From Patescibacteria group bacterium (GTDB lineage: Bacteria; Patescibacteriota; WWE3; UBA101185; UBA10185): a stretch of DNA of 64,000 nt. Under the pieces are notes generated by a model. The model saw only the letters and a program-made list of their open reading frames with translations. It was not told the DNA's origin and did not search any database. The DNA lies in contig BPJL01000007.1 of assembly GCA_026004595.1 (NCBI GenBank), positions 12,460 through 76,459 on the forward strand, read 5' to 3'. A program made the position numbers and the translations under genes. Positions 1,862 through 47,370 of this stretch are shown here, in pieces. How positions within the stretch are numbered: the first letter of the stretch is position 1; every line of letters starts with the position of its first letter.

Positions 1862-1984
1862 TTTAACTGTGTTATTTTTTTATATCGAAATCGAGTGTGT
1901 AATTGTTTGTAAGATAAAGACACGGAGCTTTAAACGGAAAAGTTGTTATAAACATAAACTTAAACATTTTAACAAATCAAAAGC

Positions 1985-4900
1985 GTGTTAAAAGGGTTTA
2001 AGTTTTCCAAAAACCAATTAAGCCCGGCTATATCCCGTGTGATTTCTATATTATTTTTTGTGAACAGTTTGTGTAAAAAGTGAGCAGTATATACCATCTA
2101 GTGGCCATAAAAACATGCTTTTTACATCGGGAAGTAGTAGGGTAAAAAAGCATGTTTTTAACAGTTTTTGATCAAAGTTTATCACGAGAATAGTTTTTTT
2201 AAAAAAGAGTGTTTAAGAAAGTGTTTAGAAAAGTGCTTAGGAGAATCACTTAATCAAAGTTTGTTTAAGGGTTTAAAGCACACTAAACGTGTCCCGAAGA
2301 CCAATTATCACCAGCTATATCCCGTGTGATTTCTATATTATTTTTTGTGAACAGTTTGTGTAAAAAGTGAGCAGTATATACCATCTAGTGGCCATAAAAA
2401 CATGCTTTTTACATCGGGAAGTAGTAGGGTAAAAAAGCATGTTTTTAACAGTTTTTGATCAAAGTTTTATCACGAGAATAGTTTTTTTAAAAAGACTGTT
2501 TTAGAAAGTGTTTATCGAAAAGTGCTTAGGAGAATCACTTGATCAAAGTTTGTTTAAGGGTTTAAAGCACACTAAACGTGTCCCGAAGACCAATTATCAC
2601 CAGCTACATCCCGTGTGATTTCTATATTATTTTTTGTGAACAGTTTGTGTAAAAAGTGAGCAGTATATACCATCTAGTGGCCATAAAAACATGCTTTTTA
2701 TAACGGGATATACTGGGATAAAAAAGTATGTTTTTGGCGTTTTTTGATCAAGTTTTATCACGAGAATAGTTTTTTTTAAAAAGACTGTTTTAGAAAGTGT
2801 TTATCGAAAAGTGCTTAGGAGAATCACTTAATCAAAGTTTGTTTAAGGGTTTAAAGATCATCAAGCATGTCTCACAGACTAATTATCACCAGCTATATCC
2901 CGTGTGATTTCTATATTATTTTTTTGTGAACAGTTGTGTAAAAAGTGAGCAGTATATACCATCTAGTGGCCATAAAAACATGCTTTTTACATCGGGAAGT
3001 AGTAGGGTAAAAAAGCATGTTTTTAACAGTTTTTGATCAAAGTTTTATCACGAGAATAGTTTTTTTAAAAAGACTGTTTTAGAAAGTGTTTATCGAAAAG
3101 TGCTTAGGAGAATCACTTGATCAAAGTTTGTTTAAGGGTTTAAAGCACACTAAACGTGTCCCGAAGACCAATTATCACCAGCTACATCCCGTGTGATTTC
3201 TATATTATTTTTTGTGAACAGTTTGTGTAAAAAGTGAGCAGTATATACCATCTAGTGGCCATAAAAACATGCTTCTTTCAACGGGATATACTGGGATAAA
3301 AAAGTATGTTTTTAACGTTTTTTGATCAAAGTTTTATCACGAGAATAGTTTTTTTAAAAAAGAGTGTTTAAGAAAGTGTTTAGAAAAGTGCTTAGGAGAA
3401 TCACTTAATCAAAGTTTGTTTAAGGGTTTAAAGATCATCAAGCATGTCTCACAGACTAATTATCACCAGCTATATCCCGTGTGATTTCTATATTATTTTT
3501 TTGTGAACAGTTGTGTAAAAAGTGAGCAGTATATACCATCTAGTGGCCATAAAAACATGCTTTTTACATCGGGAAGTAGTAGGGTAAAAAAGCATGTTTT
3601 TAACAGTTTTTGATCAAAGTTTTATCACCGTCAAAATTATTTTTAAAAAGTCTTTTTAAGAGAGTGTTTATCGAAAAGTGCTTAGGAGAATCACTTGATC
3701 AAAGTTTGTTTAAGGGTTTAAAGCACACTAAACGTGTCTCACAGACCAATTAAGCCCGGCTATATCCCGTGTGATTTCTATATTATTTTTTGTGAACAGT
3801 TTGTGTAAAAAGTGAGCAGTATATACCATCTAGTGGCCATAAAAACATGCTTTTTACATCGGGAAGTAGTAGGGTAAAAAAGCATGTTTTTAACAGTTTT
3901 TGATCAAAGTTTTATCACGAGAATAGTTTTTTTAAAAAGACTGTTTTAGAAAGTGTTTATCGAAAAGTGCTTAGGAGAATCACTTAATCAAAGTTTGTTT
4001 AAGGGTTTAAAGCACACTAAACGTGTCCCGAAGACCAATTATCACCAGCTATATCCCGTGTGATTTCTATATTATTTTTTGTGAACAGTTTGTGTAAAAA
4101 GTGAGCAGTATATACCATCTAGTGGCCATAAAAACATGCTTTTTACATCGGGAAGTAGTAGGGTAAAAAAGCATGTTTTTAACAGTTTTTGATCAAAGTT
4201 TTATCACCGTCAAAATTATTTTTAAAAAGTCTTTTTAAGAGAGTGTTTATAGAAAGTGCTTAGGAGAATCACTTGATCAAAGTTTGTTTAAGGGTTTAAA
4301 GCACACTAAACGTGTCCCGAAGACCAATTATCACCAGCTACATCCCGTGTGATTTCTATATTATTTTTTGTGAACAGTTTGTGTAAAAAGTGAGCAGTAT
4401 ATACCATCTAGTGGCCATAAAAACATGCTTTTTATAACGGGATATACTGGGATAAAAAAGTATGTTTTTGGCGTTTTTTGATCAAGTTTTATCACGAGAA
4501 TAGTTTTTTTTAAAAAGACTGTTTTAGAAAGTGTTTATCGAAAAGTGCTTAGGAGAATCACTTGATCAAAGTTTGTTTAAGGGTTTAAAGATCATCAAGC
4601 ATGTCTCACAGACTAATTATCACCAGCTATATCCCGTGTGATTTCTATATTATTTTTTTGTGAACAGTTTGTGTAAAAAGTGAGCAGTATATACCATCTA
4701 GTGGCCATAAAAACATGCTTTTTACAACGGGATATACTGGGATAAAAAAGCATGTTTTTAACGTTTTTTGATCAAAGTTTATCACGAGAATAGTTTTTTT
4801 TAAAAAAGACTGTTTTAGAAAGGTGTTTATCGAAAAGTGCTTAGGAGAATCACTTGATCAAAGTTTGTTTAAGGGTTTAAAGCACACTAAACGTGTCCCG

Positions 4901-5480
4901 AAGACCAATTATCACCAGCTACATCCCGTATGATTTCTATATTATTTTTTGTGAACAGTTTGTGTAAAAAGTGAGCAGTATATACCATCTAGTGGCCATA
5001 AAAACATGCTTTTTACAACGGGATATACTGGGATAAAAAAGCATGTTTTTGGCGTTTTTTGATCAAGTTTTATGACCGTCAAAACTATTTTTAAAAAGTC
5101 TTTTTAAGAGAGTGTTTATAGAAAGTGCTTAGGAGAATCACTTGATCAAAGTTTGTTTAAGGGTTTAAAGACCACTAAGCGTATAACGCGAACCAATTAT
5201 CACCAGCTATATCCCGTGTATTTTCTATATTATTTTTCTTAAAAAAAACTTATTAAAAACAAGCAATACCATCTAGTGGCCACAGCTTTAGCTCTCAACG
5301 GGAGTTAACGGTGTAAAAAAGTATGTTTTTAACGTTTTTTGATCAAAGTTTATCACGGTCAACAAAACTGTTTAAGCGTCTCACAAACCAATTAAGACCG
5401 ACTATATCACGTGTGTTTTATATTCTTTGCATAAAGCTTTGATATCATGTGGCCATAAAAGCGTGTTTTATCACGAGATA
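1985..5480. repeat. Tandem repeat array 1: ~12 copies of a ~288-290 bp unit (degenerate last copies), non-coding
   Basis: Recurring blocks '...CCCGTGTGATTTCTATATTATTTTTTGTGAACAGTTTGTGTAAAAAGTGAGCAGTATATACCATCTAGTGGCCATAAAAACATGCTTTTT...AAAAAGCATGTTTTTAACAGTTTTTGATCAAAGTTT...' recur with period ~290 (unit starts near 2015, 2303, 2590, 2880, 3170, 3460, 3750, 4040, 4330, 4620, 4910, 5200). Each unit contains a perfect 15-bp inverted repeat AAAAACATGCTTTTT/AAAAAGCATGTTTTT separated by ~21 nt. Confidence 0.95.
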
Positions 5481-5567: not shown

Positions 5568-6308
5568 ATGAAAAAAGCCATACTATCTGTTTTTGATTAC
5601 TCAGCTGTACCTCAGTTTTCTCATTTACCCTCTGCTGAAAGAGATTTGAGTCTAGCTTTCAAGATAGCAAAAGAGATATTAAAAATAGATGACATAACTG
5701 TTATCACTGATATCGACGTGACTAGCGGTTACAATATTATTAAACTGGATTACCCTGATAAAACAGCTGTTGTGAGGGAACTCAAAAGGATTGTAAAAAA
5801 CACGAGTAAACCGACTGACGTTTTTGTGTACTTTTCTTGTCACGGTGTTAAAAACGCTCTCTGTTTCTCTAATGAACTTTTTAGTTCAAAAGAGTTTTTT
5901 GATATATTTTTCAATAACGGATTACCCATTGGATCAACCATGCTAGTTGTTTTTGATACCTGTCATTCAGGTAGCATGAGTGATTTTCACTTCAGATATG
6001 ACCCCTTTACTAGGACGATGGAGAAAACAAAAGAGCTACCGACTGGCATCTATTATCCTTTGTCCGTTTCACTTTCAGCATCAGACGATGATAGAAAAGC
6101 AATTTCGACTCATAAAGGGTCGCCTTTTACTTATACGTTATACAGGCTTCTTAATGAACTGGACTGCGGGATAACAATAGAACAGTTGCATGACAGACTA
6201 TATGAAATGTTACCGACTGTTGCAAGGATTATGAACCCTACTATCTGTTCTACATCATCGAGGGAAAGAGCAAAGATACCGTTTTTTCATAATCTGGATA
6301 ACTGTTAA
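5568..6308 (+). CDS. Metacaspase/caspase-like cysteine peptidase (C14 family)
   Basis: Catalytic dyad motifs 'YFSCHGV' (His) and 'VFDTCHSGSM' (Cys, D-x-C-H-S-G as in metacaspases/paracaspases) at the expected spacing (~45 aa). Confidence 0.75.
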   Translation: MKKAILSVFDYSAVPQFSHLPSAERDLSLAFKIAKEILKIDDITVITDIDVTSGYNIIKLDYPDKTAVVRELKRIVKNTSKPTDVFVYFSCHGVKNALCFSNELFSSKEFFDIFFNNGLPIGSTMLVVFDTCHSGSMSDFHFRYDPFTRTMEKTKELPTGIYYPLSVSLSASDDDRKAISTHKGSPFTYTLYRLLNELDCGITIEQLHDRLYEMLPTVARIMNPTICSTSSRERAKIPFFHNLDNC

Positions 6309-6318
6309 GATCTTTTTT

Positions 6319-9300
6319 TTGAAACATCATTTAAATGTTAATAGTAAAATGGACAAAAATTTTTTCGTTGTTACGTTAAGTAGTAATGACTATTTACAGT
6401 CGAAAGAAAGAAACACAATCCCCCCTCTTCCGACAACTGAAAAATCAGAGTTTTATCTCCCTCGTGATTGGGATATGCTTCTCAGTATTTTAAAGAACAG
6501 AGCAAATATGTATATTACTGACTCGTTAAGAACCCAGAAAAATTTATCCGTTTTGAAGAAAGCTATGGGTAACTTGGACTGGCTGAATGATCTTTATAAT
6601 GACCAGTTAAACAATGCAATAAAACAGAATAACTTTGTACTTATAGGAGACATAAAGAATGTACTTGCGACCTTTGCCAAGAAACATCATGTGATTAAAC
6701 TGGATCTTCTTGAGACAATAAACACTAAGATACTTGATATTGTCGATGCGATTTTACAAAAAGAAGAAAACATCGAGTTTCAAAGAAACATTGAACAGTT
6801 AAGGGCTCTAAGAAGTGAAATAAACACTGATATTTTAAGCGAGGTTAACATTAAAGGAGTTGTAGTAGACGTGTCTAACATGATTGGAAGAAAATATGAC
6901 ATGTTAAGAATGGTAAAAACTGAAGACGCAGAAACAGCAAAACTTTTCCTCAGAGTAAGACAACGGTTGGTTGATTTTTTTAGGAAAAAAGGCTGTTCAA
7001 TAAGAACAGTAGGTGGTCTTCAGGCCAGGATAGATGATATAGAAGTGTATCAGTACGATGTTTCTAACAGACATTTAACTAAATTTTTGGAAGAAAACCT
7101 ATATCAAGAAGCCAAAGTTAACACTGATGTTGGAATTAAGCGTGAACGCAAACGCGAACGCGAACGCGAACGCAAGCGTAAACGTAAACTTGAACGTGGA
7201 AAGAAAAAAGAAACCGAACGTAAAGCCAAAGCCAGAGCCAGAGCAGAACGTAAAGCCAAAGCTAAAGCTGAAGCTGACGTTGAAGAGTTAGCCAAATCTG
7301 ACGGTGAAGCTGAAGCATTAGCCAAAGCTGAAGAGTTAGCCAAAGCCAAAGCTGAAGCTGACGGTGATACCGAAGGCGAAGCCAAAGCGTTAGCCAAAGC
7401 TGAAGCCGAAGCGTTAGCCAAAGCTGAAGCTGACGGTGATACCGAAGGCGAAGCCGAAGGCGAAGCCAAAGCGTTAGCCAAAGCTGAAGCCGAAGCGTTG
7501 ACCGGAGCGTTGGATGAAGCGTCACCGTCAGACAAAGACGAAGCCGTAACCAGCGACACTGACAGCGACGCCGGTGCCGAGCCAAAAAGTTTTGGAGAAG
7601 AAGCTATAGAAGAGATCCTCAAGAAATCAGGCGTTTCTTATGAAACACTTGAAGAGATATTTTCTGGTTCTTTAAGTGTGAAAGATGCTTCAAAGTATTT
7701 AAGAGAAGTAATAATCTGTTTACCATCGGCTGAAATATATAACCTGATTAAATCTGCTCAGATAAAGCCGGTGGAGTTTGTTCTCAAGCCGTGGCAGAAA
7801 ACGTTTTACGAGAAAATCATCAAAGGTGAGTCAGTGATTGTTATTTCTTCTACTTCCACTGGTAAAACATTTATAGCCATGTCAAGCATTGAAGCGATAA
7901 TAAGTGACGAAGACTTTGAAAGTAGCGTGTGTTTCATTGCTCCAACTTTTGACCTCGCTTTCCAACTTTTCAACAACTCATTTATAACCATGATGAACCC
8001 TATGAAAAAGATTGGATTTATAACGGAAAAGGCAATCTTCCTGCCTGAAAATGTTGACAGTGTTAAAATCTGGATTGGAACACCTGTACCCGTTTGGACT
8101 TTCTTCAAAACAAACAACATAACTGCTGAAAGAATATTTATCGACGAGATACATACTATAGCAACCAACTTGGGAGACAAAATCATTTCAGAAGCGATCT
8201 ACAACATTGCCAAAACGGGAAAACAGTTAGTGGGACTTTCTGCTACGATAAGGAACGAAGACTTAACAAGACTGATTGAGTTTCTTGACAAAAACATAAT
8301 AATTATCAGAGGACATGAAGAAAGACCTGTTAGACTGGAACGTGAAAGACTAAACCAGCTCTATGAAGATCCAGAGGAACTGTTTTGGTTTATTAAAAAC
8401 GAACTTCTTGGTAAAGAGAGAACACCTGCTGTGATTTTTGAAGAGGATGATAAAACGTGTCTTGAACAGTACAGAAAGTTGGTAGAGTGGCTGGATAAAA
8501 CCAATTCACATGAATTTGGAGAGTGTATAAATATGGGAAGAGAGTTTGAAATGGAGTTAAACGATCAGCTTGAACGTTTGAAAGCGTACGATGATCAAGA
8601 AGATGATATAAAGAACCTAGCTATATCCAAAATGAAAAAGAGGTTCAGAAACAAGATGGTAAACCTTATAGCAAAAGTGCTAAGAGGCCATTATAACATA
8701 AAGATTAAGCTTACACAAGGTGAGATTGATACGCTGAAAAGTATACTTTTTCCACCTAAGACAAAAAAACCCAAAAAGATTATCATCAAAAAGGTAAAAA
8801 AGAAGGAAGAGTCATCGTCTTCAGAAGAGACGATTGACGAAAGTAAACTTTCTATCGAGGAAATGCGAAGACTGAGAAAAAAGAGAAAGAAAAAAGAGAA
8901 AGAGGAGCGAATTCGTAAAAAGGAGAAGGAACAAGAAGAACTTGAAGAGATAGAAAGACTAAAGACGGCAGAGAAAGAAAAATCAAGAAGGATTCTTTTA
9001 TCAACCATAAGCAACCAAGCCGTACACAATATATCATTAGAAAACATTGAGTATTTTCCCGTTTGCATAAGGGACATTCTAAGAGACTACAATTCAAATA
9101 GACCTTTTTATGATGAGGTTAGTCACTTCTTTAAAATAAGTGAGGGTATTGACAGAGAAGACTTTATCATGATGAAAAAATCACTAGAAGATAAAGTTGC
9201 GATTTTTACTAGCAGAAAGAGTAAAGGTGAGAATGAGTCCTACAAAGAACCAGATAAAGAACTGTTTATACAGTCACCGAAAAAGAGAAAGTCAGACATA

Positions 9301-10128
9301 TACGACAATCTTGTTTCCGCGGAAAAGATAAGAAAATCTGAACTTGTTGACCTTGTTACACTTCTGATAAAAGGGTTAAAGTTTGGCGTTGGAATCATTT
9401 TACCATCTCTTCCTTTTGTTTTTTATGTCTTTATCATCAAGCTTCTAGCACAGAAAAAGATTCAGCTTATTTTTACTACTAAAGTCTTTTCTGTTGGTAT
9501 AGACTATCCGATCAAAACAGTGGTGATAAGAACAAGAAACGCAAAAAACATAGAGTTGGTACAGATGGAGGGAAGAGCAGGCAGGTGGAGAAGTCAAGAC
9601 GTTGGTTTTGTTTATCACTGGCAGGACTTACCTCACGTTGGAGATACTGAAGTTTTTGAGTCACTTGAGTTTCCATCAAAGGCTGGAACCGGGATGAGAC
9701 TGGGTGACGCGTTTGCCATAGCCGAAGAGATAGAAAAGAACAGGTTTCATGGAGAGACCGTGGGAATGGGTTCTAACTCTATTTTAAGCGCTCTTAACAG
9801 ACTTGATGGAAAAGATGAAGGCGGTTCAGTTGATATGCTAAAGATAAGGAGAACACTTGGAGGAATAAACAATCATTTTATCGTAGAAGATGTAGAAGAG
9901 TACATGGTAGTGATTGATGTTGTTGAACTGATTATCAACAACAAGATAACTCCAGATATAAAGGACAACAAATATGACCATATAAAGAAGATACAGAAAT
10001 ACAAACTTCTTATCCAGGAGTTATACATAAGAACATCAAATACAAAAAATCTTAACTACCTTGAACTTCTGAAATCAGTTTATGAACTGTTCCACAGGGT
10101 AGAAAAGAAGCTATTGTTAATACGATAA
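6319..10128 (+). CDS. Superfamily-2 DExH-box helicase with an N-terminal unknown domain and two low-complexity (RE/AKAEA and K/E-rich) insertions
   Basis: Motif I 'SSTSTGKTF', motif II 'IFIDEIHT' (DEIH), motif III 'LSATIRN' (SAT), motif V 'FTTKVFSVGIDYP', motif VI 'QMEGRAGRW'. It starts 10 nt after the metacaspase stop on the same strand. Confidence 0.75.
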   Translation: MKHHLNVNSKMDKNFFVVTLSSNDYLQSKERNTIPPLPTTEKSEFYLPRDWDMLLSILKNRANMYITDSLRTQKNLSVLKKAMGNLDWLNDLYNDQLNNAIKQNNFVLIGDIKNVLATFAKKHHVIKLDLLETINTKILDIVDAILQKEENIEFQRNIEQLRALRSEINTDILSEVNIKGVVVDVSNMIGRKYDMLRMVKTEDAETAKLFLRVRQRLVDFFRKKGCSIRTVGGLQARIDDIEVYQYDVSNRHLTKFLEENLYQEAKVNTDVGIKRERKRERERERKRKRKLERGKKKETERKAKARARAERKAKAKAEADVEELAKSDGEAEALAKAEELAKAKAEADGDTEGEAKALAKAEAEALAKAEADGDTEGEAEGEAKALAKAEAEALTGALDEASPSDKDEAVTSDTDSDAGAEPKSFGEEAIEEILKKSGVSYETLEEIFSGSLSVKDASKYLREVIICLPSAEIYNLIKSAQIKPVEFVLKPWQKTFYEKIIKGESVIVISSTSTGKTFIAMSSIEAIISDEDFESSVCFIAPTFDLAFQLFNNSFITMMNPMKKIGFITEKAIFLPENVDSVKIWIGTPVPVWTFFKTNNITAERIFIDEIHTIATNLGDKIISEAIYNIAKTGKQLVGLSATIRNEDLTRLIEFLDKNIIIIRGHEERPVRLERERLNQLYEDPEELFWFIKNELLGKERTPAVIFEEDDKTCLEQYRKLVEWLDKTNSHEFGECINMGREFEMELNDQLERLKAYDDQEDDIKNLAISKMKKRFRNKMVNLIAKVLRGHYNIKIKLTQGEIDTLKSILFPPKTKKPKKIIIKKVKKKEESSSSEETIDESKLSIEEMRRLRKKRKKKEKEERIRKKEKEQEELEEIERLKTAEKEKSRRILLSTISNQAVHNISLENIEYFPVCIRDILRDYNSNRPFYDEVSHFFKISEGIDREDFIMMKKSLEDKVAIFTSRKSKGENESYKEPDKELFIQSPKKRKSDIYDNLVSAEKIRKSELVDLVTLLIKGLKFGVGIILPSLPFVFYVFIIKLLAQKKIQLIFTTKVFSVGIDYPIKTVVIRTRNAKNIELVQMEGRAGRWRSQDVGFVYHWQDLPHVGDTEVFESLEFPSKAGTGMRLGDAFAIAEEIEKNRFHGETVGMGSNSILSALNRLDGKDEGGSVDMLKIRRTLGGINNHFIVEDVEEYMVVIDVVELIINNKITPDIKDNKYDHIKKIQKYKLLIQELYIRTSNTKNLNYLELLKSVYELFHRVEKKLLLIR
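7140..7520 (+). repeat. Coding microsatellite/low-complexity tract inside the helicase gene ((CGCGAA)n then GCCAAAGCTGAAGC-type repeats encoding RERERE... and AKAEAEALAKAEA...)
   Basis: Directly visible hexamer and ~27-nt imperfect tandem repeats. They generate the spurious antisense ORFs 7104..7622 and 7262..7585 in the track. Confidence 0.8.
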
Positions 10129-15939: not shown

Positions 15940-16812
15940 ATGAGGACATCAAATATTGTTCTTGTGGCAAGCATTGAAAACCAGACGGGAAACCTTATTG
16001 ACCTTTTTGACACCATGGCTATTCACAAAGTAAACTTTGTTGTTGGCTCTAAAACAAAGAATAGAGAACCGGTCCCCTTCTTTGGAATAAACAACGTGAT
16101 AGTCGGTATCTGTCTTAACGGAAAAAACAGAGGCATTAGTCGTAACAAAAGACAGCTGCCTAACCTACTACAGCTTGACTACCAAGTCTTTGACAGAAAC
16201 GTTAGTGTTAAAATGGGTGAAAGGATGATTCATCTCACTGGGCTAAAGAACAAGGATCAGGGTGTGAAGGTTATGGAATCATTGTTTGAGCATGTTGCAA
16301 TGACTAAGAACAATGTTGAACTGGTAGTCAACTGGGACGAAGAAACCAAAAGAAATGCTCTGGAGCAGCTGAAAGAGCTGTTTTACAACAAAGAGGCCAT
16401 ACACAACCTTGACAGCCGCGGGTTAAAGTATCTAGCCGTGTTCTCCTATGAGTATGATAACGTAGAAGAATACCTTGAGAAAGTAAAATCCATTTTGTAT
16501 AATAGAAGAGAGATAAGCATTCCAAGAGTAAAAGATATAAACATATGCAATGGAGTCTATATCTCCTCTTTCAACTGCTCTATCCCATTGTTAAAAACAG
16601 CACAGATGTTATCAAAGCTCAACAAATATGAAGTTCTGTTTCATAACTGGAACTCAAAAAGAAACATCTGCATTGCTATCAACAGGCTTGGTAAAACGCA
16701 CAAGTTCACGATACACAGAAACGGCTCGGTAAAGCAGTACTCTCCTTCTGACTTTGACGAAGCAGAGAAGGTGCTTGATGAGGTAACCAGAGACATACTA
16801 ACAGTTATATAG
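15940..16812 (+). CDS. Hypothetical protein (290 aa)
   Basis: Long ORF, no secure motif. There is faint two-repeat resemblance to TBP-like folds, which I do not claim. Confidence 0.6.
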   Translation: MRTSNIVLVASIENQTGNLIDLFDTMAIHKVNFVVGSKTKNREPVPFFGINNVIVGICLNGKNRGISRNKRQLPNLLQLDYQVFDRNVSVKMGERMIHLTGLKNKDQGVKVMESLFEHVAMTKNNVELVVNWDEETKRNALEQLKELFYNKEAIHNLDSRGLKYLAVFSYEYDNVEEYLEKVKSILYNRREISIPRVKDINICNGVYISSFNCSIPLLKTAQMLSKLNKYEVLFHNWNSKRNICIAINRLGKTHKFTIHRNGSVKQYSPSDFDEAEKVLDEVTRDILTVI

Positions 16813-34047: not shown

Positions 34048-34668
34048 ATGTTTAAGGTAAAAGTTTTAAAAAAGAGTGCTATAGACACTTCAATTCTAAA
34101 GAAAAGAAAGGTACACTTTACCTCCAGTGATATAAAGCCGTTCGCCGACCAAAAGCTTGAGTGGAAAAACGAGGAACTGCCTGATGAACTAAAGAAGCTT
34201 TGCGAACAGGTTAAGTTAATTTTCTCTTTACAGGACGAGGTAAAGGGCTATAACGTACGTTTCATTCCCCCATCAAGGACTGTTAACAGGGGTAAGACTG
34301 TAATCATAGAAAAGGCCACCGGAATGACTGTTTGCTCTAGGGTTGTCATAACACTTGGCTCAATGGAGTCAATTGGTTTAAGGCTAGAGAACGAGGAAGC
34401 GGAAGTTGTAATTCCTTCTAACTCGGGCTTTCAAATTCCACTGTTTATGGTAGCAGCGTTTGATATAAAAGTTGATGACAAAGACAGCTTTAAAATAAAA
34501 ATCGGTTCTAAAGAGAAAACAGTTGCAAAAAGACCAAACAGACGCTACATAATGGTGATAGACTTTCTAACCAACGACACAACTCTTAACAACGTTTTAA
34601 CAAAGTCTGGTTTATCGGAAAATACAATCAAGGCAATTAGAAGAAACCTTTTTGACAAAGGCAAATGA
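34048..34668 (+). CDS. Hypothetical protein (206 aa)
   Basis: ORF. Its last ~110 nt are duplicated at 36770-36880 upstream of the second BspA-like gene. Confidence 0.6.
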   Translation: MFKVKVLKKSAIDTSILKKRKVHFTSSDIKPFADQKLEWKNEELPDELKKLCEQVKLIFSLQDEVKGYNVRFIPPSRTVNRGKTVIIEKATGMTVCSRVVITLGSMESIGLRLENEEAEVVIPSNSGFQIPLFMVAAFDIKVDDKDSFKIKIGSKEKTVAKRPNRRYIMVIDFLTNDTTLNNVLTKSGLSENTIKAIRRNLFDKGK

Positions 34669-34699
34669 TTGTTTTTTTAAAAAAAAGACAAGCCAAAAA

Positions 34700-36742
34700 A
34701 TGGATAAAATAAAACTACCAAAAGACAGCACAGGGTACTTTAGTGGTAAAAGAATAACAAACGAGTTAATTAAAAAATATGACGCTTCCCAAGTTGAGAT
34801 AATGAACGACATTTTCAAAGATGCAACGTTCGAAGACGTTGACTTAAACTCTTGGGACGTATCAAGGGTTAAGTCGATGAAGGGTGCTTTTATGAACAGT
34901 TTGGGAACCGTAAACATCTCACAGTGGAACGTGTCAAAGGTAAGGGACATGAGTCACATGTTTAAAAACTCGTCTTTTAATGGCGACATTTCAAATTGGG
35001 ACGTGTCAAACGTGAGAAACATGAGCTTTATGTTCTGTAAAACAAAGTTTAACAGCGATATATCACATTGGAATGTTTCAAACGTTAGGTTTATGATTGG
35101 CATGTTCACTGAGTCGGAATTCAACGGCGACATATCACGTTGGAATGTTTCAAACGTGATAAGCATGAGACAAATGTTCACTATGTCAAAGTTTAACGGA
35201 GACATATCACGTTGGAACGTTTCAAACGTGAAAAACATGTCGTCCATGTTCGCCCGTTCACAGTTTAACAGGGACATATCAGATTGGAACGTTTCAAAGG
35301 TAAGGGATATGAGCTACATGTTTTATCAATCACGTTTCAACGGAGACGTTTCAAATTGGAATGTTTCGAACGTGAGAAACATGATTCGCATGTTCTGTAG
35401 GTCTGATTTTAACAGTAACATTTCAAATTGGGACGTGTCAAACGTGAGAAACATGAGCAGTTTGTTTGAATCAACAAAGTTTAATGGAGACATATCAAAA
35501 TGGAACGTGTCGAAAGTGAGAAACATGAGTCGCATGTTCTGTAGGTCTGATTTTAACAGGGACATTTCAAATTGGAACGTGTCAAACGTGAGGAACATGA
35601 TCGATTTGTTTGGAGGATCAAAGTTTAATGGAGACATATCACGGTGGGACGTGTCAAACGTGATAGACATGAGCTTTATGTTCTGTAAATCAAAGTTCGA
35701 TGGAGACATTTCAAATTGGAACGTGTCAAACGTGATAGACATGAGATATATGTTTTATGAATCAAAGTTCGATGGAGACATTTCAAATTGGAACGTGTCG
35801 AACGTGAGAAACATGAGCTGTATGTTTTATGGATCAAAGTTCGATGGAGACATATCAAAATGGAACGTGTCGAACGTAAGGGACATGAGTCGCATGTTCT
35901 GTAGGTCTGTTTTTAACAGGGACATTTCAAATTGGGACGTGTCAAACGTGAGGTACATGAGATTTATGTTTGATAACTCGTCTTTTAATGGCGACATATC
36001 ACGGTGGGACGTGTCGAACGTGAGAGACATGAGCTTTATGTTTTACGGATCAAAGTTCGATGGAGACATTTCAAATTGGAACGTGTCGAACGTGAGAAAC
36101 ATGAGCTGTATGTTTTATAAATCAAAGTTCGATGGAGACATTTCAAATTGGAACGTGTCGAAAGTGAAGGACATGAGTAGCATGTTCTGTAGGTCTGTTT
36201 TTAACAGGGACATTTCAAATTGGGACGTGTCAAACGTGAGGGACATGAGTCACATGTTTGATAACTCGTCTTTTAATGGCGACATATCACGGTGGGACGT
36301 GTCGAACGTGAGAGACATGAGCTTTATGTTTTACGGATCAAAGTTCGATGGAGACATTTCAAATTGGAACGTGTCAAACGTATGGGGTATGAGTCACATG
36401 TTTTATGAATCAAAGTTCGATGGAGACATTTCAAATTGGAACGTGTCAAACGTGATAGACATGAGCCATATGTTTCATGAATCAAAGTTCGATGGAGACA
36501 TTTCAAATTGGAACGTGTCGAACGTAAGGGATATGAGTCACATGTTTGCTCTTTCGAGGTTCGACGATGACATATCCAAATGGGACGTTTCAAACGTCGA
36601 AGACATGAGCTATATGTTCTTTCAATCAAAGTTCAACGGCGATATATCACGGTGGAACGTTTCAAACGTGAAAAACATGACCAACATGTTCCTTCTTTCG
36701 GATTTCAACGGCCACTTTTCACCTAGAATATCTCAAACGTGA
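34700..36742 (+). CDS. BspA-like / DUF285 ('Mycoplasma-type') leucine-rich-repeat protein, ~26 tandem 24-aa repeats
   Basis: Repeating 'FNGDISNWNVSNVRNMSHMFxxSx' units (72-nt period). ATG 'MDKIKLPKDSTGYFSGKRI' at 34700. The track start at 34652 is a TTG. Confidence 0.8.
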   Translation: MDKIKLPKDSTGYFSGKRITNELIKKYDASQVEIMNDIFKDATFEDVDLNSWDVSRVKSMKGAFMNSLGTVNISQWNVSKVRDMSHMFKNSSFNGDISNWDVSNVRNMSFMFCKTKFNSDISHWNVSNVRFMIGMFTESEFNGDISRWNVSNVISMRQMFTMSKFNGDISRWNVSNVKNMSSMFARSQFNRDISDWNVSKVRDMSYMFYQSRFNGDVSNWNVSNVRNMIRMFCRSDFNSNISNWDVSNVRNMSSLFESTKFNGDISKWNVSKVRNMSRMFCRSDFNRDISNWNVSNVRNMIDLFGGSKFNGDISRWDVSNVIDMSFMFCKSKFDGDISNWNVSNVIDMRYMFYESKFDGDISNWNVSNVRNMSCMFYGSKFDGDISKWNVSNVRDMSRMFCRSVFNRDISNWDVSNVRYMRFMFDNSSFNGDISRWDVSNVRDMSFMFYGSKFDGDISNWNVSNVRNMSCMFYKSKFDGDISNWNVSKVKDMSSMFCRSVFNRDISNWDVSNVRDMSHMFDNSSFNGDISRWDVSNVRDMSFMFYGSKFDGDISNWNVSNVWGMSHMFYESKFDGDISNWNVSNVIDMSHMFHESKFDGDISNWNVSNVRDMSHMFALSRFDDDISKWDVSNVEDMSYMFFQSKFNGDISRWNVSNVKNMTNMFLLSDFNGHFSPRISQT

Positions 36743-36769
36743 AGGCTTGGATCAGGTTGAAACTATGCA

Positions 36770-36880
36770 AAAAGACCAAACAGACGCTACATAATGGTGA
36801 TAGACTTTCTAACCAACGACACAACTCTTAACAACGTTTTAACAAAGTCTGGTTTATCGGAAAATACAATCAAGGCAAAT
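36770..36880 (+). pseudogene. Duplicated 3' fragment of gene 34048..34668 (with a 25-nt internal deletion), part of the segmental duplication carrying the BspA-like gene
   Basis: 'CAAAAAGACCAAACAGACGCTACATAATGGTGATAGACTTTCTAACCAACGACACAACTCTTAACAACGTTTTAACAAAGTCTGGTTTATCGGAAAATACAATCAAGGCAA' is identical to 34525-34636. 36725-36775 is also repeated at 39800-39850. Confidence 0.8.
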
Positions 36881-36912
36881 GATTGTTTTTAAAAAAAAGA
36901 CAAGCCAAAAAA

Positions 36913-39801
36913 ATGGATAAAATAAAACTACCAAAAGACAGTACAGGGTACTTTAGTGGTAAAAGAATAACAAACGAGTTAATTGAAAAATATGACGCTT
37001 CCCAAGTTGAGATAATGGACGACATTTTCAAAGATGCAACGTTTTCGAACGTTGACTTAAACTCGTGGGACGTATCAAGGGTTAAGTCAATGAAGGGTGC
37101 TTTTATGAACAGTTTGGGAACCGTAAACATCTCACAGTGGAACGTGTCAAACGTGAGGGACATGAGTCACATGTTTGAAAACTCGTCTTTTAATGGCGAC
37201 ATATCACAGTGGGACGTGTCAAACGTGAGAAACATGAGCTTTATGTTCTGTAAATCAAAGTTTAACAGCGATATATCACATTGGAATGTTTCAAACGTTA
37301 GGTTTATGATTGGCGTGTTCACTGAGTCGGTATTCACAGGCGACATATCCAACTGGGACGTTTCAAACGTCGAAGACATGAGACAGATGTTTGCTGAATC
37401 AAAGTTTAACGGGGACATATCACGCTGGAACGTTTCAAACGTGAAAAACATGTCGTCCATGTTCTGTAGGTCTGTTTTTAACAGGGACATATCAGATTGG
37501 AACGTTTCAAACGTAAGGGATATGAGCTACATGTTTTATATATCAAGTTTCAACGGAGACATTTCAAATTGGAATGTTTCGAACGTGAGAAACATGAGCT
37601 ATATGTTCCATGGATCAAAGTTTGAAGGAAACATATCACGATGGGACGTTTCAAATGTAAAAGATATGAGCGGTTTGTTTGAAGGAGCAAAGTTTAATGG
37701 AGACATATCAAAATGGAACGTGTCGAAAGTGAGGGACATGAGTCGCATGTTCTGTGGGTCTGTTTTTAACAGGAACATTTCAAATTGGAACGTGTCAAAC
37801 GTGAGGGACATGAGTCACATGTTTGATAACTCGTCTTTTAATGGAGACATATCACGGTGGGACGTGTCGAACGTGAGAGACATGAGCTTTATGTTTTACG
37901 GATCAAAGTTCGATGGAGACATTTCAAATTGGAACGTGTCAAACGTGATAGACATGAGATATATGTTTTATGAATCAAAGTTCGATGGAGACATTTCAAA
38001 TTGGAACGTGTCGAACGTAGGGGATATGAGTCACATGTTTGCTCTTTCGAGGTTCAACGGTGACATATCCAACTGGGACGTTTCAAACGTCGAAGACATG
38101 ATCTATATGTTCTATCAATCAAAGTTCAACGGCGATATATCACGGTGGAACGTTTCAAACGTGAAAAACATGTCGTCCATGTTCGCCCATTCACAGTTTA
38201 ACAGGGACATATCAGATTGGAACGTTTCAAACGTAAGGGATATGAGCTACATGTTTTATGAATCAAGTTTCAACGGAGACATTTCAAATTGGAATGTTTC
38301 TAACGTGAGAAACATGAGCCATATGTTCCATGGATCAAAGTTTGAAGGAAACATATCACGATGGGACGTGTCGAAAGTGATGGACATGAGTCGCATGTTC
38401 TGTTGGTCCGTTTTTAACAGGAACATTTCAAATTGGAACGTGTCAAACGTGAGGAACATGAGTCACATGTTTTATAACTCGTCTTTTAATGGCGACATAT
38501 CACGGTGGGACGTGTCAAACGTGAGAAACATGAGCTATATGTTCTGTGAATCAAAGTTCGATGGAGACATTTCAAATTGGAACGTGTCAAACGTGAGAGA
38601 CATGAGCTTTATGTTCTGTAAATCAAAGTTCGATGGCGACATATCACGGTGGGACGTGTCAAACGTGATAGACATGAGCCATATGTTTCATGAATCAGAG
38701 TTCGATGGAGACATTTCAAATTGGAACGTGTCAAACGTGATAGACATGAGCCATATGTTTCATGAATCAAAGTTCGATGGAGACATTTCAAATTGGAACG
38801 TGTCGAACGTAAGGGATATGAGTCACATGTTTGCTCTTTCGAGGTTCAACGGTGACATATCCAACTGGGACGTTTCAAACGTGACAAACATGAGACAAAT
38901 GTTCAATATGTCAAAGTTTAACGGGGACATATCACGCTGGAACGTTTCAAACGTGAAAAACATGTCGTCCATGTTCACTAAATCACAGTTTAACAGGGAC
39001 ATATCAGATTGGAATGTTTCAAACGTAAGGGATATGAGCTACATGTTTTATGAATCAAGTTTCAACGGAGACATTTCAAATTGGAATGTTTCGAACGTGA
39101 GAAACATGAGCCATATGTTCCATGGATCAAAGTTTAATGGAGACATATCACGATGGAACGTGTCGAAAGTGAGGGACATGAGTCACATGTTCTGTAGGTC
39201 TGTTTTTAACAGGGACATTTCAAATTGGAACGTGTCAAACGTGAGGGACATGAGTCACATGTTTGATAACTCGTCTTTTAATGGAGACATATCACGGTGG
39301 GACGTGTCAAACGTGAGAGACATGAACTATATGTTTTATGAATCAGAGTTCGATGGAGACATTTCAAATTGGAACGTGTCAAACGTGAGGGACATGATCT
39401 GTATGTTCTGTAGATCTGTTTTTAACAGGGACATTTCAAATTGGGACGTGTCAAACGTGAGGGTCATGAGTAACATGTTTGATAACTCGTCTTTTAATGG
39501 CGACATATCACGGTGGGACGTGTCAAACGTGAGAAACATGAGCTATATGTTCTGTGAATCAAAGTTCGATGGAGACATTTCAAATTGGAACGTGTCAAAC
39601 GTGAGGGACATGAGCTTTATGTTTGCTCTTTCGAGGTTCGACGATGACATATCCAACTGGGACGTTTCAAACGTCAAAGACATGAGCTATATGTTCTATC
39701 AATCAAAGTTCAACGGCGATATATCACGGTGGAACACTTCAAAAGTCGAAGACATGACCGACATGTTCCTTCTTTCGGATTTCAACGGCCTTTTCATCTA
39801 G
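36913..39801 (+). CDS. BspA-like / DUF285 repeat protein, paralog 2 (~38 tandem 24-aa repeats)
   Basis: The N-terminus 'MDKIKLPKDSTGYFSGKRITNELIEKYDASQVEIMDD' matches paralog 1 apart from isolated substitutions (K→E, N→D), followed by the same 72-nt repeat family. Confidence 0.8.
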   Translation: MDKIKLPKDSTGYFSGKRITNELIEKYDASQVEIMDDIFKDATFSNVDLNSWDVSRVKSMKGAFMNSLGTVNISQWNVSNVRDMSHMFENSSFNGDISQWDVSNVRNMSFMFCKSKFNSDISHWNVSNVRFMIGVFTESVFTGDISNWDVSNVEDMRQMFAESKFNGDISRWNVSNVKNMSSMFCRSVFNRDISDWNVSNVRDMSYMFYISSFNGDISNWNVSNVRNMSYMFHGSKFEGNISRWDVSNVKDMSGLFEGAKFNGDISKWNVSKVRDMSRMFCGSVFNRNISNWNVSNVRDMSHMFDNSSFNGDISRWDVSNVRDMSFMFYGSKFDGDISNWNVSNVIDMRYMFYESKFDGDISNWNVSNVGDMSHMFALSRFNGDISNWDVSNVEDMIYMFYQSKFNGDISRWNVSNVKNMSSMFAHSQFNRDISDWNVSNVRDMSYMFYESSFNGDISNWNVSNVRNMSHMFHGSKFEGNISRWDVSKVMDMSRMFCWSVFNRNISNWNVSNVRNMSHMFYNSSFNGDISRWDVSNVRNMSYMFCESKFDGDISNWNVSNVRDMSFMFCKSKFDGDISRWDVSNVIDMSHMFHESEFDGDISNWNVSNVIDMSHMFHESKFDGDISNWNVSNVRDMSHMFALSRFNGDISNWDVSNVTNMRQMFNMSKFNGDISRWNVSNVKNMSSMFTKSQFNRDISDWNVSNVRDMSYMFYESSFNGDISNWNVSNVRNMSHMFHGSKFNGDISRWNVSKVRDMSHMFCRSVFNRDISNWNVSNVRDMSHMFDNSSFNGDISRWDVSNVRDMNYMFYESEFDGDISNWNVSNVRDMICMFCRSVFNRDISNWDVSNVRVMSNMFDNSSFNGDISRWDVSNVRNMSYMFCESKFDGDISNWNVSNVRDMSFMFALSRFDDDISNWDVSNVKDMSYMFYQSKFNGDISRWNTSKVEDMTDMFLLSDFNGLFI

Positions 39802-45531: not shown

Positions 45532-47370
45532 GTGATTAAAAGTAGCTTCTTAAAAATGGAAACCAACATAAGAGAAGAATTAGAGAAACTTATACCAGAA
45601 ATCAGGTCCCCGATAAAAGAGATATCAGACCTGGCTAGAGAACAGATAATCGACAAACTAGCAATAATACTAAGTGATAACATTATGGACGATAAGTTAA
45701 AAAGACTTATCGTTACCTCTTTTTACAGGAGCAGAGCTGAGCCCGGTCATCATGTGGGAATAGAGGCATCAGAAGGTCTAGCCGGTCCAATGACACAGAT
45801 GACGCTATCCGGTTTTCATCAAGCCGGTTCCGCTGCTAACATTAGCTCCGGCATAGAAGCCCTAAAAGAGATACTTAACATCACCAAGAAAAGAAAGGCA
45901 GAAAGGACAACAATACACTTTAAAAACAGATACCTTTTACCCAACGAGATACTTGATCTAAAAAAAGAAATAGTAGGAGTGACAGTGAAAGACCTATTGA
46001 TTCAGTCGCCGAGAGACTTTTTGAACAAAGAAGAGGACAGTTGGTATGAAGCATTCAAAAGAATATTTTCAATAGAGTCCTTACCTCCAATATCAACACG
46101 GCTAAGACTAAACAGAAACAAGCTATTCGAATACGAGATAACAACGTATGAAATAATAGAAAAGATAAAGAAACAGTTTAAGGAGATAATTGCAATACCA
46201 TCTCCAATATCAGGTGAAAGTATCTATATTGACGTTTTTCCAACTGCTGAAGTTGTAAACAAGCACAGCAAAAAGCTTTCATCGGCGGGTAACCTGGAGG
46301 ATAAAATGCAACTCTTTCTTACTCAGGTGTTTAAACCGTCACTTGAGACAATAGTTATAAAGGGAATACCCGGAATAAGTGAAATCTTTCCAGAAACGGT
46401 AAGGGTTACCAAGATGATAAAAAACGTCTCAAGAAAAAACGACTGGTACATCTGGCTTGATAACATCAAGATGTTATACGGTGGGATCGATCGGGAAAGG
46501 GTTGCCGAGGTGATAGAAGCATCGGGAATAGAGATCGTAGAAACAATAAAAAGCGAGAAAATATGGATACCAATGGGCTTTAGGGTAAAGGCAGATGAAA
46601 ACCCATTAGAACTAATAAACAGAAGACTCAACGAGGAAGAGGAAAAACTAAGAGAAACGGGTGTGTCGTCTGACCTGTATAGAAAGGGAAATTACAGTTT
46701 TGTTTATGCTAACGGAAGTAACTTAAGAAAAGTTTTAACACACCCTTTAATAGACCCAAGAATTTCCATATGCAATAACATACTCGAAATAAACTCAGTA
46801 ATTGGTATACAGGCTGTTAACAACTTTATAATAAAAGACGTTTATGAGACAATAACCAACTCTTCGTCTTACTGTTCACCAAAACACATAGTACTTCTTG
46901 CAAACTTTATGACTGCGATAGGGTTGGTGCCGGTAACGTCAAGTGGTGTTTCAAAACACAACAGAGGTGCTTTCACCGATGCAACGTTTGAGCAGACAGT
47001 AGAGGCCTTTTTCAACGCAGCCTTAATAGGAAGATGGGAAGAAACAAGTGCAACATCAACGTCACTTTTCATAGGAGAGAGGGGAAGGTATGGAACGGGA
47101 ATATGCGAAGTTGAATTTGATGAAGAGGGAATGAAGGCGTTAGTCGGAGAAGAGAAAGAAACGGAAACCTTTAAAGAAGAGGTTACCGGAGCACAGATAA
47201 ACCCAGTCATTTTGGAGGAAAACGAAAACGACTATATATCAGAGAAGGTGATGCTTGAAACAAGCAAAGCAATGCTATTGGAACAACAGTCAGATGATGA
47301 GTCAGAAGACGTAGAAGAGATAGTAGACGAGAAGGTCATGAAACTAATCCAGGAACTTGCAAACGGCTAA
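45532..47370 (+). CDS. RPB1: RNA polymerase largest subunit, C-terminal portion (A''-like: trigger loop/domains G-H) with acidic tail
   Basis: 'AEPGHHVGIEASEGLAGPMTQMTLSGFHQAGSA' matches the conserved RPB1 trigger-loop region (…GEP.TQMTLNTFH.AGV…). Also 'GVSKHNRGAFTDATFEQTVE…'. There is no NADFDGD in this gene. Confidence 0.75.
   Translation: MIKSSFLKMETNIREELEKLIPEIRSPIKEISDLAREQIIDKLAIILSDNIMDDKLKRLIVTSFYRSRAEPGHHVGIEASEGLAGPMTQMTLSGFHQAGSAANISSGIEALKEILNITKKRKAERTTIHFKNRYLLPNEILDLKKEIVGVTVKDLLIQSPRDFLNKEEDSWYEAFKRIFSIESLPPISTRLRLNRNKLFEYEITTYEIIEKIKKQFKEIIAIPSPISGESIYIDVFPTAEVVNKHSKKLSSAGNLEDKMQLFLTQVFKPSLETIVIKGIPGISEIFPETVRVTKMIKNVSRKNDWYIWLDNIKMLYGGIDRERVAEVIEASGIEIVETIKSEKIWIPMGFRVKADENPLELINRRLNEEEEKLRETGVSSDLYRKGNYSFVYANGSNLRKVLTHPLIDPRISICNNILEINSVIGIQAVNNFIIKDVYETITNSSSYCSPKHIVLLANFMTAIGLVPVTSSGVSKHNRGAFTDATFEQTVEAFFNAALIGRWEETSATSTSLFIGERGRYGTGICEVEFDEEGMKALVGEEKETETFKEEVTGAQINPVILEENENDYISEKVMLETSKAMLLEQQSDDESEDVEEIVDEKVMKLIQELANG

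What the first reader, a model, noticed from the sequence alone, without database searches (positions are those of the whole stretch)
5568..10128. Metacaspase-like protease immediately upstream of, and likely co-transcribed with, a giant DExH helicase carrying disordered coiled-coil inserts
A C14 peptidase with intact His/Cys dyad (SCHG…DTCHSG) ends 10 nt before a 1269-aa helicase. The helicase's RecA domains are interrupted by (RE)n/AKAEA and K/E-rich tracts. Protease plus NTPase/helicase pairs are a recurring theme in prokaryotic immune and abortive-infection systems and in eukaryotic cell-death signalling. In a giant virus such a pair could act in host manipulation, anti-virophage defence or virion maturation. 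I do not recognise this pairing as a described module.
Basis: inference. Interest (0 to 1): 0.55.

Follow-up and report, generated by a model that had tools for sequence, protein, structure and literature searches.

The report
Conserved giant-virus metacaspase–helicase gene neighbourhood
A giant virus, deposited under a bacterial label, encodes a caspase-like protease directly upstream of a large Ski2-type helicase; the same neighbourhood recurs in about half of the related uncultivated viruses I could examine, but the two genes are not an operon and nothing yet shows that they work together.

Summary
Both genes are real. ORF 5568-6308 is a 246-aa C14 metacaspase-like protease (Pfam E 9e-13). 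Its His92/Cys132 dyad is invariant in six relatives. ORF 6349-10128 (1259 aa from the ATG, not the TTG at 6319) is a DExH helicase with all core motifs. Its closest solved relatives by sequence and by fold are Mtr4, Ski2 and Hel308. The contig is labelled a Patescibacteria MAG but carries giant-virus genes (topoisomerase II, Rpb1, Rpb5, Erv1, XRN).

The helicase defines a family of at least 50 clusters of 1000-1300-aa proteins from metagenomes. I obtained genomic context for 14 lineages. The metacaspase is the immediate 5' neighbour in 6 (3 tandem, 3 head-to-head), lies within 7 kb in 2, and is absent from the flank in 6. No other flanking gene family recurs as often.

Co-transcription is not supported: three lineages are divergently oriented, and a gap of 40 nt or less is the norm in this window. 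The low-complexity tracts occur only in this genome and derive from DNA tandem repeats. I found no similarity to known defence modules.

Verdict: a previously undescribed conserved neighbourhood of two known gene families. A functional link is plausible but unproven.

The parts
5568..6308 (+). Metacaspase-like C14 cysteine protease, 246 aa, minimal form with no prodomain. Catalytic His92 (YFSCHG) and Cys132 (FDTCHSG). A p10-like region is present (SASDD...GSPFT).
   Evidence: Pfam PF00656 E 8.7e-13. Dyad invariant in six homologues. Foldseek top 13 hits of the model are all metacaspases, though the model is only moderate, pLDDT 62.
6309..6348 (+). A/T-rich 40-nt intergenic spacer ending in ...GTAAA before the helicase ATG.
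   Evidence: Sequence. Upstream context shared with other genes in the window. The GenBank product is 1259 aa.
6349..7137 (+). Helicase N-terminal family-specific domain (residues 1-263). No Pfam match. Conserved across the family (LTEV...LG.KYD..KM...).
   Evidence: Alignment A2 of 28 family members.
7138..7599 (+). Low-complexity tract 1, (RE)n / KAKAEA (residues 264-417), lying between the N-terminal domain and RecA1. Unique to this genome.
   Evidence: K/R-rich windows occur only in the window protein. DNA tandem repeats of period 6-72 nt at 7138-7496.
7780..8328 (+). RecA1 domain: motif I STSTGKT, Ia APTFDLAFQ, II DEIH, III SAT.
   Evidence: Pfam DEAD E 1.1e-15. Invariant columns T502 G505 K506 T507 D599 E600 H602 S631 A632 T633. 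Model pLDDT 85-94.
8449..9303 (+). Long helical insertion within RecA2, between motif IV and the GxGIILP/motif V region (residues about 701-985). An insertion at this position is a family feature.
   Evidence: Motif II to motif VI spacing is 390-500 residues in nearly all members and reaches 638 in two, P0017 and P0160. The model shows helices 262-343 and 397-448 in model numbering, which is +439 relative to the protein.
8773..9003 (+). Low-complexity tract 2, K/R/E-rich (residues about 809-885), at the tip of the RecA2 insertion. Unique to this genome.
   Evidence: The adjacent tip segment, model residues 344-389 (protein 783-828), has pLDDT below 50.
9304..9648 (+). RecA2 core: GVGIILPSLPF, motif V TTKVFSVGIDYP, motif VI QMEGRAGR.
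   Evidence: Pfam Helicase_C 22.9 bits, just below the 23.5 cut-off. phmmer alignment to Mtr4. Invariant Q1072 G1075 R1076 G1078 R1079.
9649..10128 (+). Helicase C-terminal all-helical domain (residues about 1101-1259) plus the stop codon. Conserved family motif ...LQELH...YELLHRV....
   Evidence: Alignment A2. Model helices 682-817, pLDDT 72-91 over the last about 80 residues. Foldseek alignments to Mtr4/Ski2/Hel308 span 780-960 columns.

Best explanation
Two separately transcribed genes of an uncultivated giant virus (Nucleocytoviricota) form a conserved gene neighbourhood.

The upstream gene is a minimal, catalytically competent metacaspase-like protease. It is probably Arg/Lys-directed, as metacaspases are, because the D-x-C-H-S-G motif is kept. 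The downstream gene is a family-specific Ski2-like DExH helicase of about 1100-1260 aa with all ATPase and helicase motifs intact.

Shown: both family assignments; the viral origin of the contig; and recurrence of the metacaspase on the 5' side of the orthologous helicase, in either orientation, across lineages whose helicases are only about 30-37% identical.

Inferred: the arrangement is ancestral to this clade and is kept because the two genes share an upstream regulatory region or temporal class, and possibly act in one pathway. The helicase most likely acts on RNA, in viral transcript processing or decay, alongside the XRN 5'-3' exonuclease and the Nudix enzyme encoded in the same window. 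The protease most likely cleaves host or viral proteins during infection, and the helicase complex is a candidate substrate or partner.

It is neither an operon nor a recognisable defence system. The low-complexity inserts are recent repeat expansions peculiar to this genome.
For: - Family assignments.
- Giant-virus context.
- Helicase family: 50 cluster representatives at E below 1e-30 with the same architecture.
- Synteny, tandem: window, L083, and L082 with L001.
- Synteny, head-to-head: L088 and L089 with 61-67-nt spacers, L096 with a 1.4-kb spacer.
- Nearby: L084 at 4.2 kb, L094 at 6.4 kb.
- Internal control: among about 183 flanking ORFs in the 13 lineages then in hand, before L096 was added, the metacaspase is the most recurrent family, in 7 lineages and always on the 5' side. 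The next are protein X (5 lineages) and an AAA ATPase (3). All others occur in 2 or fewer.
- Immediate flanks otherwise differ between lineages.
- Sister lineages with 84-86% bootstrap support differ in state, which implies repeated loss of an older arrangement.
- XRN and Nudix are in the window.
- The low-complexity tracts are lineage-specific.
Against: - Six of 14 lineages lack the metacaspase within 3-10 kb, so the linkage is dispensable.
- Other genes (X, topoisomerase II, AAA) also recur nearby, so part of the signal is plain ancestral synteny of a conserved genome block.
- The lineages are not independent, and deep nodes of the helicase tree are poorly supported, at 26-60%.
- There is no expression, proteomic or interaction data.
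- No fusion of the two families was found.
- Fold search cannot tell an RNA from a DNA substrate: Hel308 and Pol-theta helicases score nearly as well as Mtr4 and Ski2.
- The metacaspase model is only moderately confident.
Confidence: 0.55

Rival explanations
1. Neutral leftover synteny. The two genes were adjacent in the ancestor of this viral clade and have simply not yet been separated in some descendants. There is no shared regulation or function.
For: - The pair lies in a block where other genes also recur: protein X in 5 lineages, an AAA ATPase in 3, topoisomerase II in 2.
- The linkage is lost in 6 of 14 lineages, including sisters of lineages that keep it.
Against: - The metacaspase is the only family that recurs at position -1 (6 lineages).
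- It stays adjacent even after its orientation flipped.
- The other immediate neighbours are almost entirely different between lineages whose helicases are only 30-37% identical.
Confidence: 0.28
2. Protease-substrate pair. The metacaspase, which cleaves after Arg/Lys, processes the helicase or its complex, for example at basic linkers, to activate or release domains.
For: - The window helicase carries two extremely K/R-rich exposed tracts.
- Adjacency is conserved.
- A distant branch of the same helicase family is fused to a different cysteine protease (OTU) at its C-terminus.
Against: - The K/R-rich tracts are absent from all 27 other family members, including those with an adjacent metacaspase, so they cannot be the conserved basis of the link.
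- No cleavage data exist.
- The OTU fusion is in a distant branch (E 1e-12 to 1e-22), and OTU is a protease of a different clan.
Confidence: 0.08
3. Immune-like module. The helicase senses foreign nucleic acid (a virophage, a competing virus or host RNA) and the caspase-like protease is the effector, by analogy with prokaryotic NTPase-protease defence systems or eukaryotic RLR/DDX60-caspase axes.
For: - Conserved pairing of a helicase with a caspase-family protease.
- Eukaryotic DDX60-like helicases appear among distant hits.
- Weak PADLOC hits to a caspase model and to HamB.
Against: - The PADLOC hits are generic (E 4e-4; E 3e-7 over about 70 residues of RecA1) and no system architecture matches.
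- The helicase family is broadly conserved and sits beside core replication and transcription genes, not in a variable island.
- There is no sensor or effector coupling domain and no fusion of the two families.
Confidence: 0.06
4. A bacterial (Patescibacteria) operon, as the GenBank label of the contig implies.
For: - The source names both proteins 'MAG: hypothetical protein KatS3mg101_0808/0809 [Patescibacteria group bacterium]'.
- The gap is short and both genes are on the same strand.
Against: - The window encodes a eukaryote-type fused topoisomerase II, Rpb1 and Rpb5 subunits of a eukaryote-type RNA polymerase, Erv1/Alr and XRN.
- The helicase relatives I could trace lie on giant-virus MAG contigs (GVMAG) and on an 855-kb record named 'uncultured virus'.
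Confidence: 0.01

Closest known systems
Type I metacaspases and orthocaspases (MEROPS C14B; e.g. yeast Yca1, Candida glabrata MCA1, Trypanosoma brucei MCA2)
   Same: - Pfam C14 match above threshold.
- His/Cys dyad in S-x-H-G and D-x-C-H-S-G motifs.
- A p10-like S-A-S-D...G-S-P-F-T region.
- The best structural matches are these proteins.
   Different: - Only 246 aa, with no N-terminal prodomain.
- Below 20% identity to any solved structure.
- Its own relatives are 370-404 aa because of two insertions that the window protein lacks.
- Encoded by a virus.
Previously reported giant-virus C14 proteases (medusavirus, Heterosigma akashiwo virus 01 and gvSAG metacaspases; ascovirus caspase; cedratvirus 'caspase-like' virion proteins of about 28.7 kDa)
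   Same: Giant-virus-encoded C14-family proteases whose role is unknown (PMC6450098, PMC10583209, PMC7136201, PMC12724359). The cedratvirus proteins are the same size as this one and are packaged in virions.
   Different: - Sequence relationship to those proteins could not be tested here, because no annotated giant-virus collection was available.
- This family has no relative in IMG/VR.
- None of the passages I read in those papers (term searches for metacaspase, caspase and helicase) mentions linkage to a helicase.
Ski2-like SF2 helicases (Mtr4/Dob1, Ski2, FRH, Hel308/Pol-theta helicase, Brr2, DDX60)
   Same: - Motif I GKT, motif II DExH, motif III SAT and motif VI QMxGRAGR.
- The best sequence hits (Mtr4, E 7e-9) and the best fold hits are all in this group.
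   Different: - A family-specific N-terminal domain of about 260 residues.
- A helical insertion of about 280 residues inside RecA2, rather than the Mtr4/Ski2 arch that emerges from the winged-helix domain.
- A short C-terminal helical domain of about 160 residues.
- Substrate and polarity are unknown.
Large 'DEAD-like helicase' proteins of Imitervirales (Catovirus, CeV-01B, Gaeavirus, Homavirus and Yasminevirus; about 940-aa family in GVMAGs)
   Same: The nearest viral structural matches in BFVD. About 77 IMG/VR loci carry a helicase of about 940 aa (892-1168) that scores about 150-200 bits against the family profile.
   Different: - Only 11-14% identity in structural alignments.
- They lack the full N-terminal domain match.
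- None of the 80 IMG/VR loci has a metacaspase within about 6 kb.
Prokaryotic protease-plus-NTPase/helicase defence modules (e.g. Hachiman HamB helicase, caspase-like/CHAT effectors)
   Same: A co-located helicase and caspase-family protease, with weak PADLOC hits to HamB and to a 'caspase' model.
   Different: - The hits are generic and low-scoring.
- No known system pairs a C14 protease with a Ski2-like helicase.
- The genes are monocistronic genes of a eukaryotic virus, in a conserved core-like block.

Membership tests
Peptidase C14 (caspase/metacaspase) | Profile match above the curated threshold | tested here: met
   PF00656: 48.9 bits against a cut-off of 21.4, E 8.7e-13, covering profile positions 36-227 of 233.
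Peptidase C14 (caspase/metacaspase) | Catalytic His-Cys dyad in conserved motifs | tested here: met
   His92 (SCHG) and Cys132 (DTCHSG) are invariant in six homologues. They align to SGHG and DSCHSG of C. glabrata metacaspase.
Peptidase C14 (caspase/metacaspase) | Caspase-haemoglobinase fold | tested here: met
   The AlphaFold model (pLDDT 62.5, pTM 0.70) gives metacaspases as its top 13 Foldseek PDB hits (probability 0.98-1.0, TM about 0.36-0.47), followed by caspases. Model quality is moderate.
Metacaspase subgroup (Arg/Lys specificity) | Acidic S1 pocket and cleavage after basic residues | not testable with these tools
   Asp130 of D-x-C-H-S-G and the invariant Asp26 are consistent with the acidic pocket described for TbMCA2 (established knowledge). 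Specificity needs biochemistry.
Ski2-like SF2 helicase | Helicase motifs I, Ia, II (DExH), III (SAT), V and VI (QxxGRxGR) | tested here: met
   GKT 505-507, DEIH 599-602, SAT 631-633 and QMEGRAGR 1072-1079 are all invariant family columns. Pfam DEAD scores 58.2 bits against 26.
Ski2-like SF2 helicase | RecA2 (Helicase_C) profile match | tested here: inconclusive
   PF00271 scores 22.9 bits, just under the 23.5 cut-off. RecA2 does align to Mtr4 by phmmer (E 7e-9) and is modelled with pLDDT 80-89.
Ski2-like SF2 helicase | Overall fold closest to Ski2/Mtr4/Hel308, including winged-helix and ratchet domains | tested here: inconclusive
   All of the top 50 Foldseek PDB hits are Ski2-like helicases, E down to 8e-14, with alignments spanning 750-980 columns, but TM is only 0.30-0.44. 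I did not resolve separate winged-helix and ratchet domains in the 160-residue C-terminal region.
Operon / co-transcribed pair | Same strand and one transcript, conserved in relatives | tested here: not met
   The genes are head-to-head in L088, L089 and L096. The 40-nt gap is ordinary for this window. Transcripts themselves could not be tested.
Conserved gene neighbourhood | Adjacency recurs in divergent relatives more than other neighbours do | tested here: met
   The metacaspase is the -1 neighbour in 6 of 14 lineages and within 7 kb in 8 of 14. No other family is at +1 or -1 in more than 2 lineages.
Known anti-phage / immune systems (PADLOC) | Significant match of both components to one system | tested here: not met
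   Only the caspase model at E 4e-4 (17.6 bits), and HamB at E 2.7e-7 and BrxH at E 4e-4 over RecA1 fragments.
Nucleocytoviricota (giant virus) genome | Hallmark genes on the same contig | tested here: met
   Topoisomerase II, Rpb1 (N-terminal and C-terminal parts), Rpb5, Erv1/Alr, XRN and Nudix. I did not look for the major capsid protein, PolB or the A32 ATPase by name.

The most novel reading that the evidence does not exclude
The metacaspase and the Ski2-like helicase are a functional two-component module inherited by a deep clade of giant viruses. The helicase engages a particular RNA or RNP (viral, host or virophage) and thereby recruits or gates the protease. This would give viral metacaspases, whose role is an open question, a defined nucleic-acid-linked function. 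The independent fusion of a distant branch of the same helicase family to an OTU cysteine protease would then be a second instance of the same logic.
Probability: 0.1. Interest if true: 0.75.

Novelty: new variant of a known kind. Interest (0 to 1): 0.4.

Why it matters
C14 proteases are widespread in giant viruses, but reviews state that their role in infection is unclear (PMC10583209). A conserved genomic partner gives a concrete hypothesis to test: a link to RNA helicase function, co-expression or co-packaging.

The work also defines an uncharacterised family of large Ski2-like helicases in giant viruses, with at least 50 clusters. It further flags a 79-kb 'Patescibacteria' record as a mis-binned giant virus, which matters for databases that use it.

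If the link proves to be only inherited gene order, the result is an ordinary pair of known gene families.

Tried and rejected
- Word-indexed homologue searches found almost nothing: one relative for the protease and none for the helicase. Repeating the search with a family profile also failed. Only the exhaustive HMMER search revealed the helicase family.
- IMG/VR and JGI metagenome scans for the protease found no relatives. A hand-built degenerate DNA pattern found one uninformative 2-kb contig, L092.
- BLASTP of the 56-aa fragment downstream of L001 against the window helicase was not significant. A family HMM aligned it to the extreme N-terminus (E 1.7e-4), and it visibly matches the N-terminus of P0032.
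- The sigma-70 promoter and terminator scan was at background and is not applicable to this virus.
- A k-mer search for a shared promoter gave only the A-rich context before start codons. No motif is shared between the metacaspase-helicase spacers of different lineages.
- NCBIfam gave only sub-threshold hits, or hits driven by the low-complexity tracts.
- I could not assign the virus to an order. BFVD nearest neighbours are Imitervirales helicases at 11-14% identity. The non-coding repeat array and 36% G+C recall Pithovirus, but that comparison rests on memory only.
- I could not test the relationship to cedratvirus, medusavirus or HaV metacaspases, because no annotated giant-virus collection was available.
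Full report
**What is at the coordinates**

ORF 5568-6308 (+) encodes 246 aa. ORF 6319/6349-10128 (+) encodes 1269 aa from the TTG or 1259 aa from the ATG.

Pfam assigns the first ORF to Peptidase_C14 (E 8.7e-13, above threshold). It assigns the second to DEAD (E 1.1e-15), with Helicase_C just below threshold. The sequence shows YFSCHG and FDTCHSG in the protease, and DEIH and QMEGRAGR in the helicase.

The TTG at 6319 is 10 nt after the protease stop codon. However, the first ATG (6349) has the ...TAAA|ATG context seen at other genes in the window, and the deposited protein is 1259 aa. The real gap is therefore 40 nt. That is unremarkable: 27 of 38 gene junctions in the window are 40 nt or less.

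**Where the window comes from**

Both proteins are identical to 'hypothetical proteins' KatS3mg101_0808 and _0809 of a 79,304-bp contig named as a Patescibacteria MAG. The window nevertheless encodes:
- a fused eukaryote-type topoisomerase II;
- three Rpb1 pieces and Rpb5;
- an Erv1/Alr thiol oxidase;
- an XRN 5'-3' exonuclease and a Nudix enzyme;
- a transglutaminase-like protein.

Helicase relatives sit on giant-virus MAG contigs and on an 855-kb 'uncultured virus' record. The contig is a mis-binned giant virus.

**The protease**

Its only close relative in the word-indexed database is a 378-aa JGI protein, P0002. More relatives emerged from helicase-anchored loci.

- In six sequences, His92 and Cys132 are invariant. 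The relatives carry two insertions that the window protein lacks, so this is a minimal form.
- Profile and single-sequence searches of PDB align SCHG and DTCHSG with SGHG and DSCHSG of C. glabrata metacaspase.
- A two-sequence AlphaFold model (pLDDT 62.5) retrieves only metacaspases as its top 13 matches, then caspases.
- Membership in C14 is therefore well supported. Arg/Lys specificity is inferred from the retained D-x-C-H-S-G motif and needs biochemistry.

Giant-virus C14 proteases are already known: medusavirus, HaV01, single-virus genomes, ascoviruses and cedratvirus virions. The gene by itself is not new.

**The helicase**

- Sequence search of PDB gives Mtr4/Dob1 as the best hit (E 7e-9).
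- A model of residues 440-1259 (pLDDT 73.7) retrieves only Ski2-like helicases: Mtr4, FRH, Ski2, Hel308/Pol-theta, Brr2 and DDX60.
- An exhaustive HMMER search found 50 cluster representatives below E 1e-30. All are 1000-1300 aa with the same layout: a conserved N-terminal domain, RecA1, RecA2 split by a long helical insertion, and a conserved helical C-terminal domain.
- All catalytic motif residues are invariant.

The first tract lies before RecA1 and comes from DNA tandem repeats. The second sits at the disordered tip of the RecA2 insertion. The insertion is a family trait; the charged tracts are not.

**Synteny**

I obtained context for 14 helicase-orthologue lineages, counting loci whose helicase scores above 500 bits against the family profile.

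| State | Lineages |
|---|---|
| Metacaspase at -1, tandem | window; L083 (54-nt gap); L082 with L001 |
| Metacaspase at -1, head-to-head | L088 and L089 (61-67-nt spacers); L096 (1.4-kb spacer) |
| Metacaspase upstream, not adjacent | L084 (4.2 kb); L094 (6.4 kb, split ORF) |
| Not found in 3-10 kb of flank | L086, L090, L093, L095, L002/3, L005 |

None of the roughly 77 IMG/VR loci that carry the more distant helicase of about 940 aa (892-1168) has a metacaspase nearby.

As an internal control, I clustered all flanking ORFs of 13 lineages. The metacaspase family is the most recurrent neighbour and is always on the 5' side. Protein X (5 lineages) and an AAA ATPase (3 lineages) come next. Nothing else recurs in more than two lineages.

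Helicases of adjacency-bearing lineages are only about 30-37% identical. Well-supported sister pairs differ in state, for example L088 adjacent against L090, where a resolvase gene sits at -1. The simplest reading is an old arrangement that has been repeatedly broken. Deep nodes of the tree are weak and the lineages are not independent, so I give no formal probability.

**How it most likely works**

Head-to-head arrangements rule out co-transcription as the conserved feature. What is conserved is that the metacaspase abuts the helicase's 5' end, which is compatible with a shared upstream control region or temporal class.

The pair lies among conserved replication and transcription genes, not in a variable island. 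PADLOC gives only generic weak hits. I therefore favour a role in the normal infection cycle over a defence role.

The Ski2-like helicase, the XRN and the Nudix enzyme together suggest viral RNA processing or turnover. This is an inference, and fold search cannot exclude a Hel308-like role on DNA. The protease-substrate idea based on the K/R-rich tracts fails, because those tracts are not conserved.

A distant branch of the helicase family is fused to a C-terminal OTU cysteine protease. That is suggestive of a recurrent helicase-protease theme, but it is remote.

**Novelty**

Each gene family is known. In the searchable literature I found no description of the conserved metacaspase-helicase neighbourhood, nor of this helicase family as such. 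I rate it a new variant of known kinds, of moderate interest, with a 10% chance that it is a true functional module.

Noticed in passing
window 1929-5420 (degenerate copies to about 5520): A 3.5-kb non-coding tandem array of about 12 copies of a 289-bp unit lies directly upstream of the protease gene. No ORF of 60 aa or more falls inside it, and G+C is lower there (31-33%). It recalls the non-coding repeat arrays of Pithovirus, though that comparison is from memory.
   Followed up: partly
whole window (contig KatS3mg101, 79,304 bp): The record is deposited as a 'Patescibacteria group bacterium' MAG, but it carries topoisomerase II, Rpb1, Rpb5, Erv1/Alr, XRN and Nudix. It is a mis-binned giant-virus contig.
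   Followed up: yes
window 52422-54845, 55109-57496 and 45532-47370: Two adjacent paralogous copies of the N-terminal about 800 aa of RNA polymerase Rpb1, plus a separate C-terminal piece 5 kb upstream. The two copies are 44% identical overall but share a stretch of about 63 aa that is 100% identical around the NADFDGD active site. This could be gene conversion or an assembly chimera.
   Followed up: partly
proteins P0094, P0097, P0110 (distant helicase relatives, 1595-2672 aa): A distant branch of the helicase family carries a C-terminal OTU-like cysteine protease domain. Pfam OTU gives E 2e-5 in P0094, and the others have GDCFFDT-type motifs. This is a second, independent association of this helicase type with a cysteine protease.
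   Followed up: partly
window 15940-16812; L083 2481-3542; L089 5722-6705; L002 2271-3413; L094 4898-5845: An uncharacterised protein of about 290-350 aa ('X', with no Pfam or NCBIfam match) recurs within a few genes of the helicase in five lineages. It is part of the same loosely conserved block.
   Followed up: partly
window 34652-39801: Two large tandem genes made of 14 and 18 DUF285 repeats (BspA-like, by my reading) with near-identical upstream regions.
   Followed up: no
L090 8923-9939 and L091 6047-7063: A serine-recombinase (Resolvase) gene occupies position -1 of the helicase in the lineage whose sister (L088) has the metacaspase there. This may be the trace of the rearrangement that broke the pair.
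   Followed up: no
L094 2568-3632 (minus strand): The metacaspase homologue is split into two ORFs. It is either a pseudogene or a sequencing error.
   Followed up: no
L083 6817-7947 and L096 7430-8578: In two lineages the Gly after the catalytic Cys-His-Ser is replaced (DTCHSA, DTCHSS), while His and Cys are kept.
   Followed up: no
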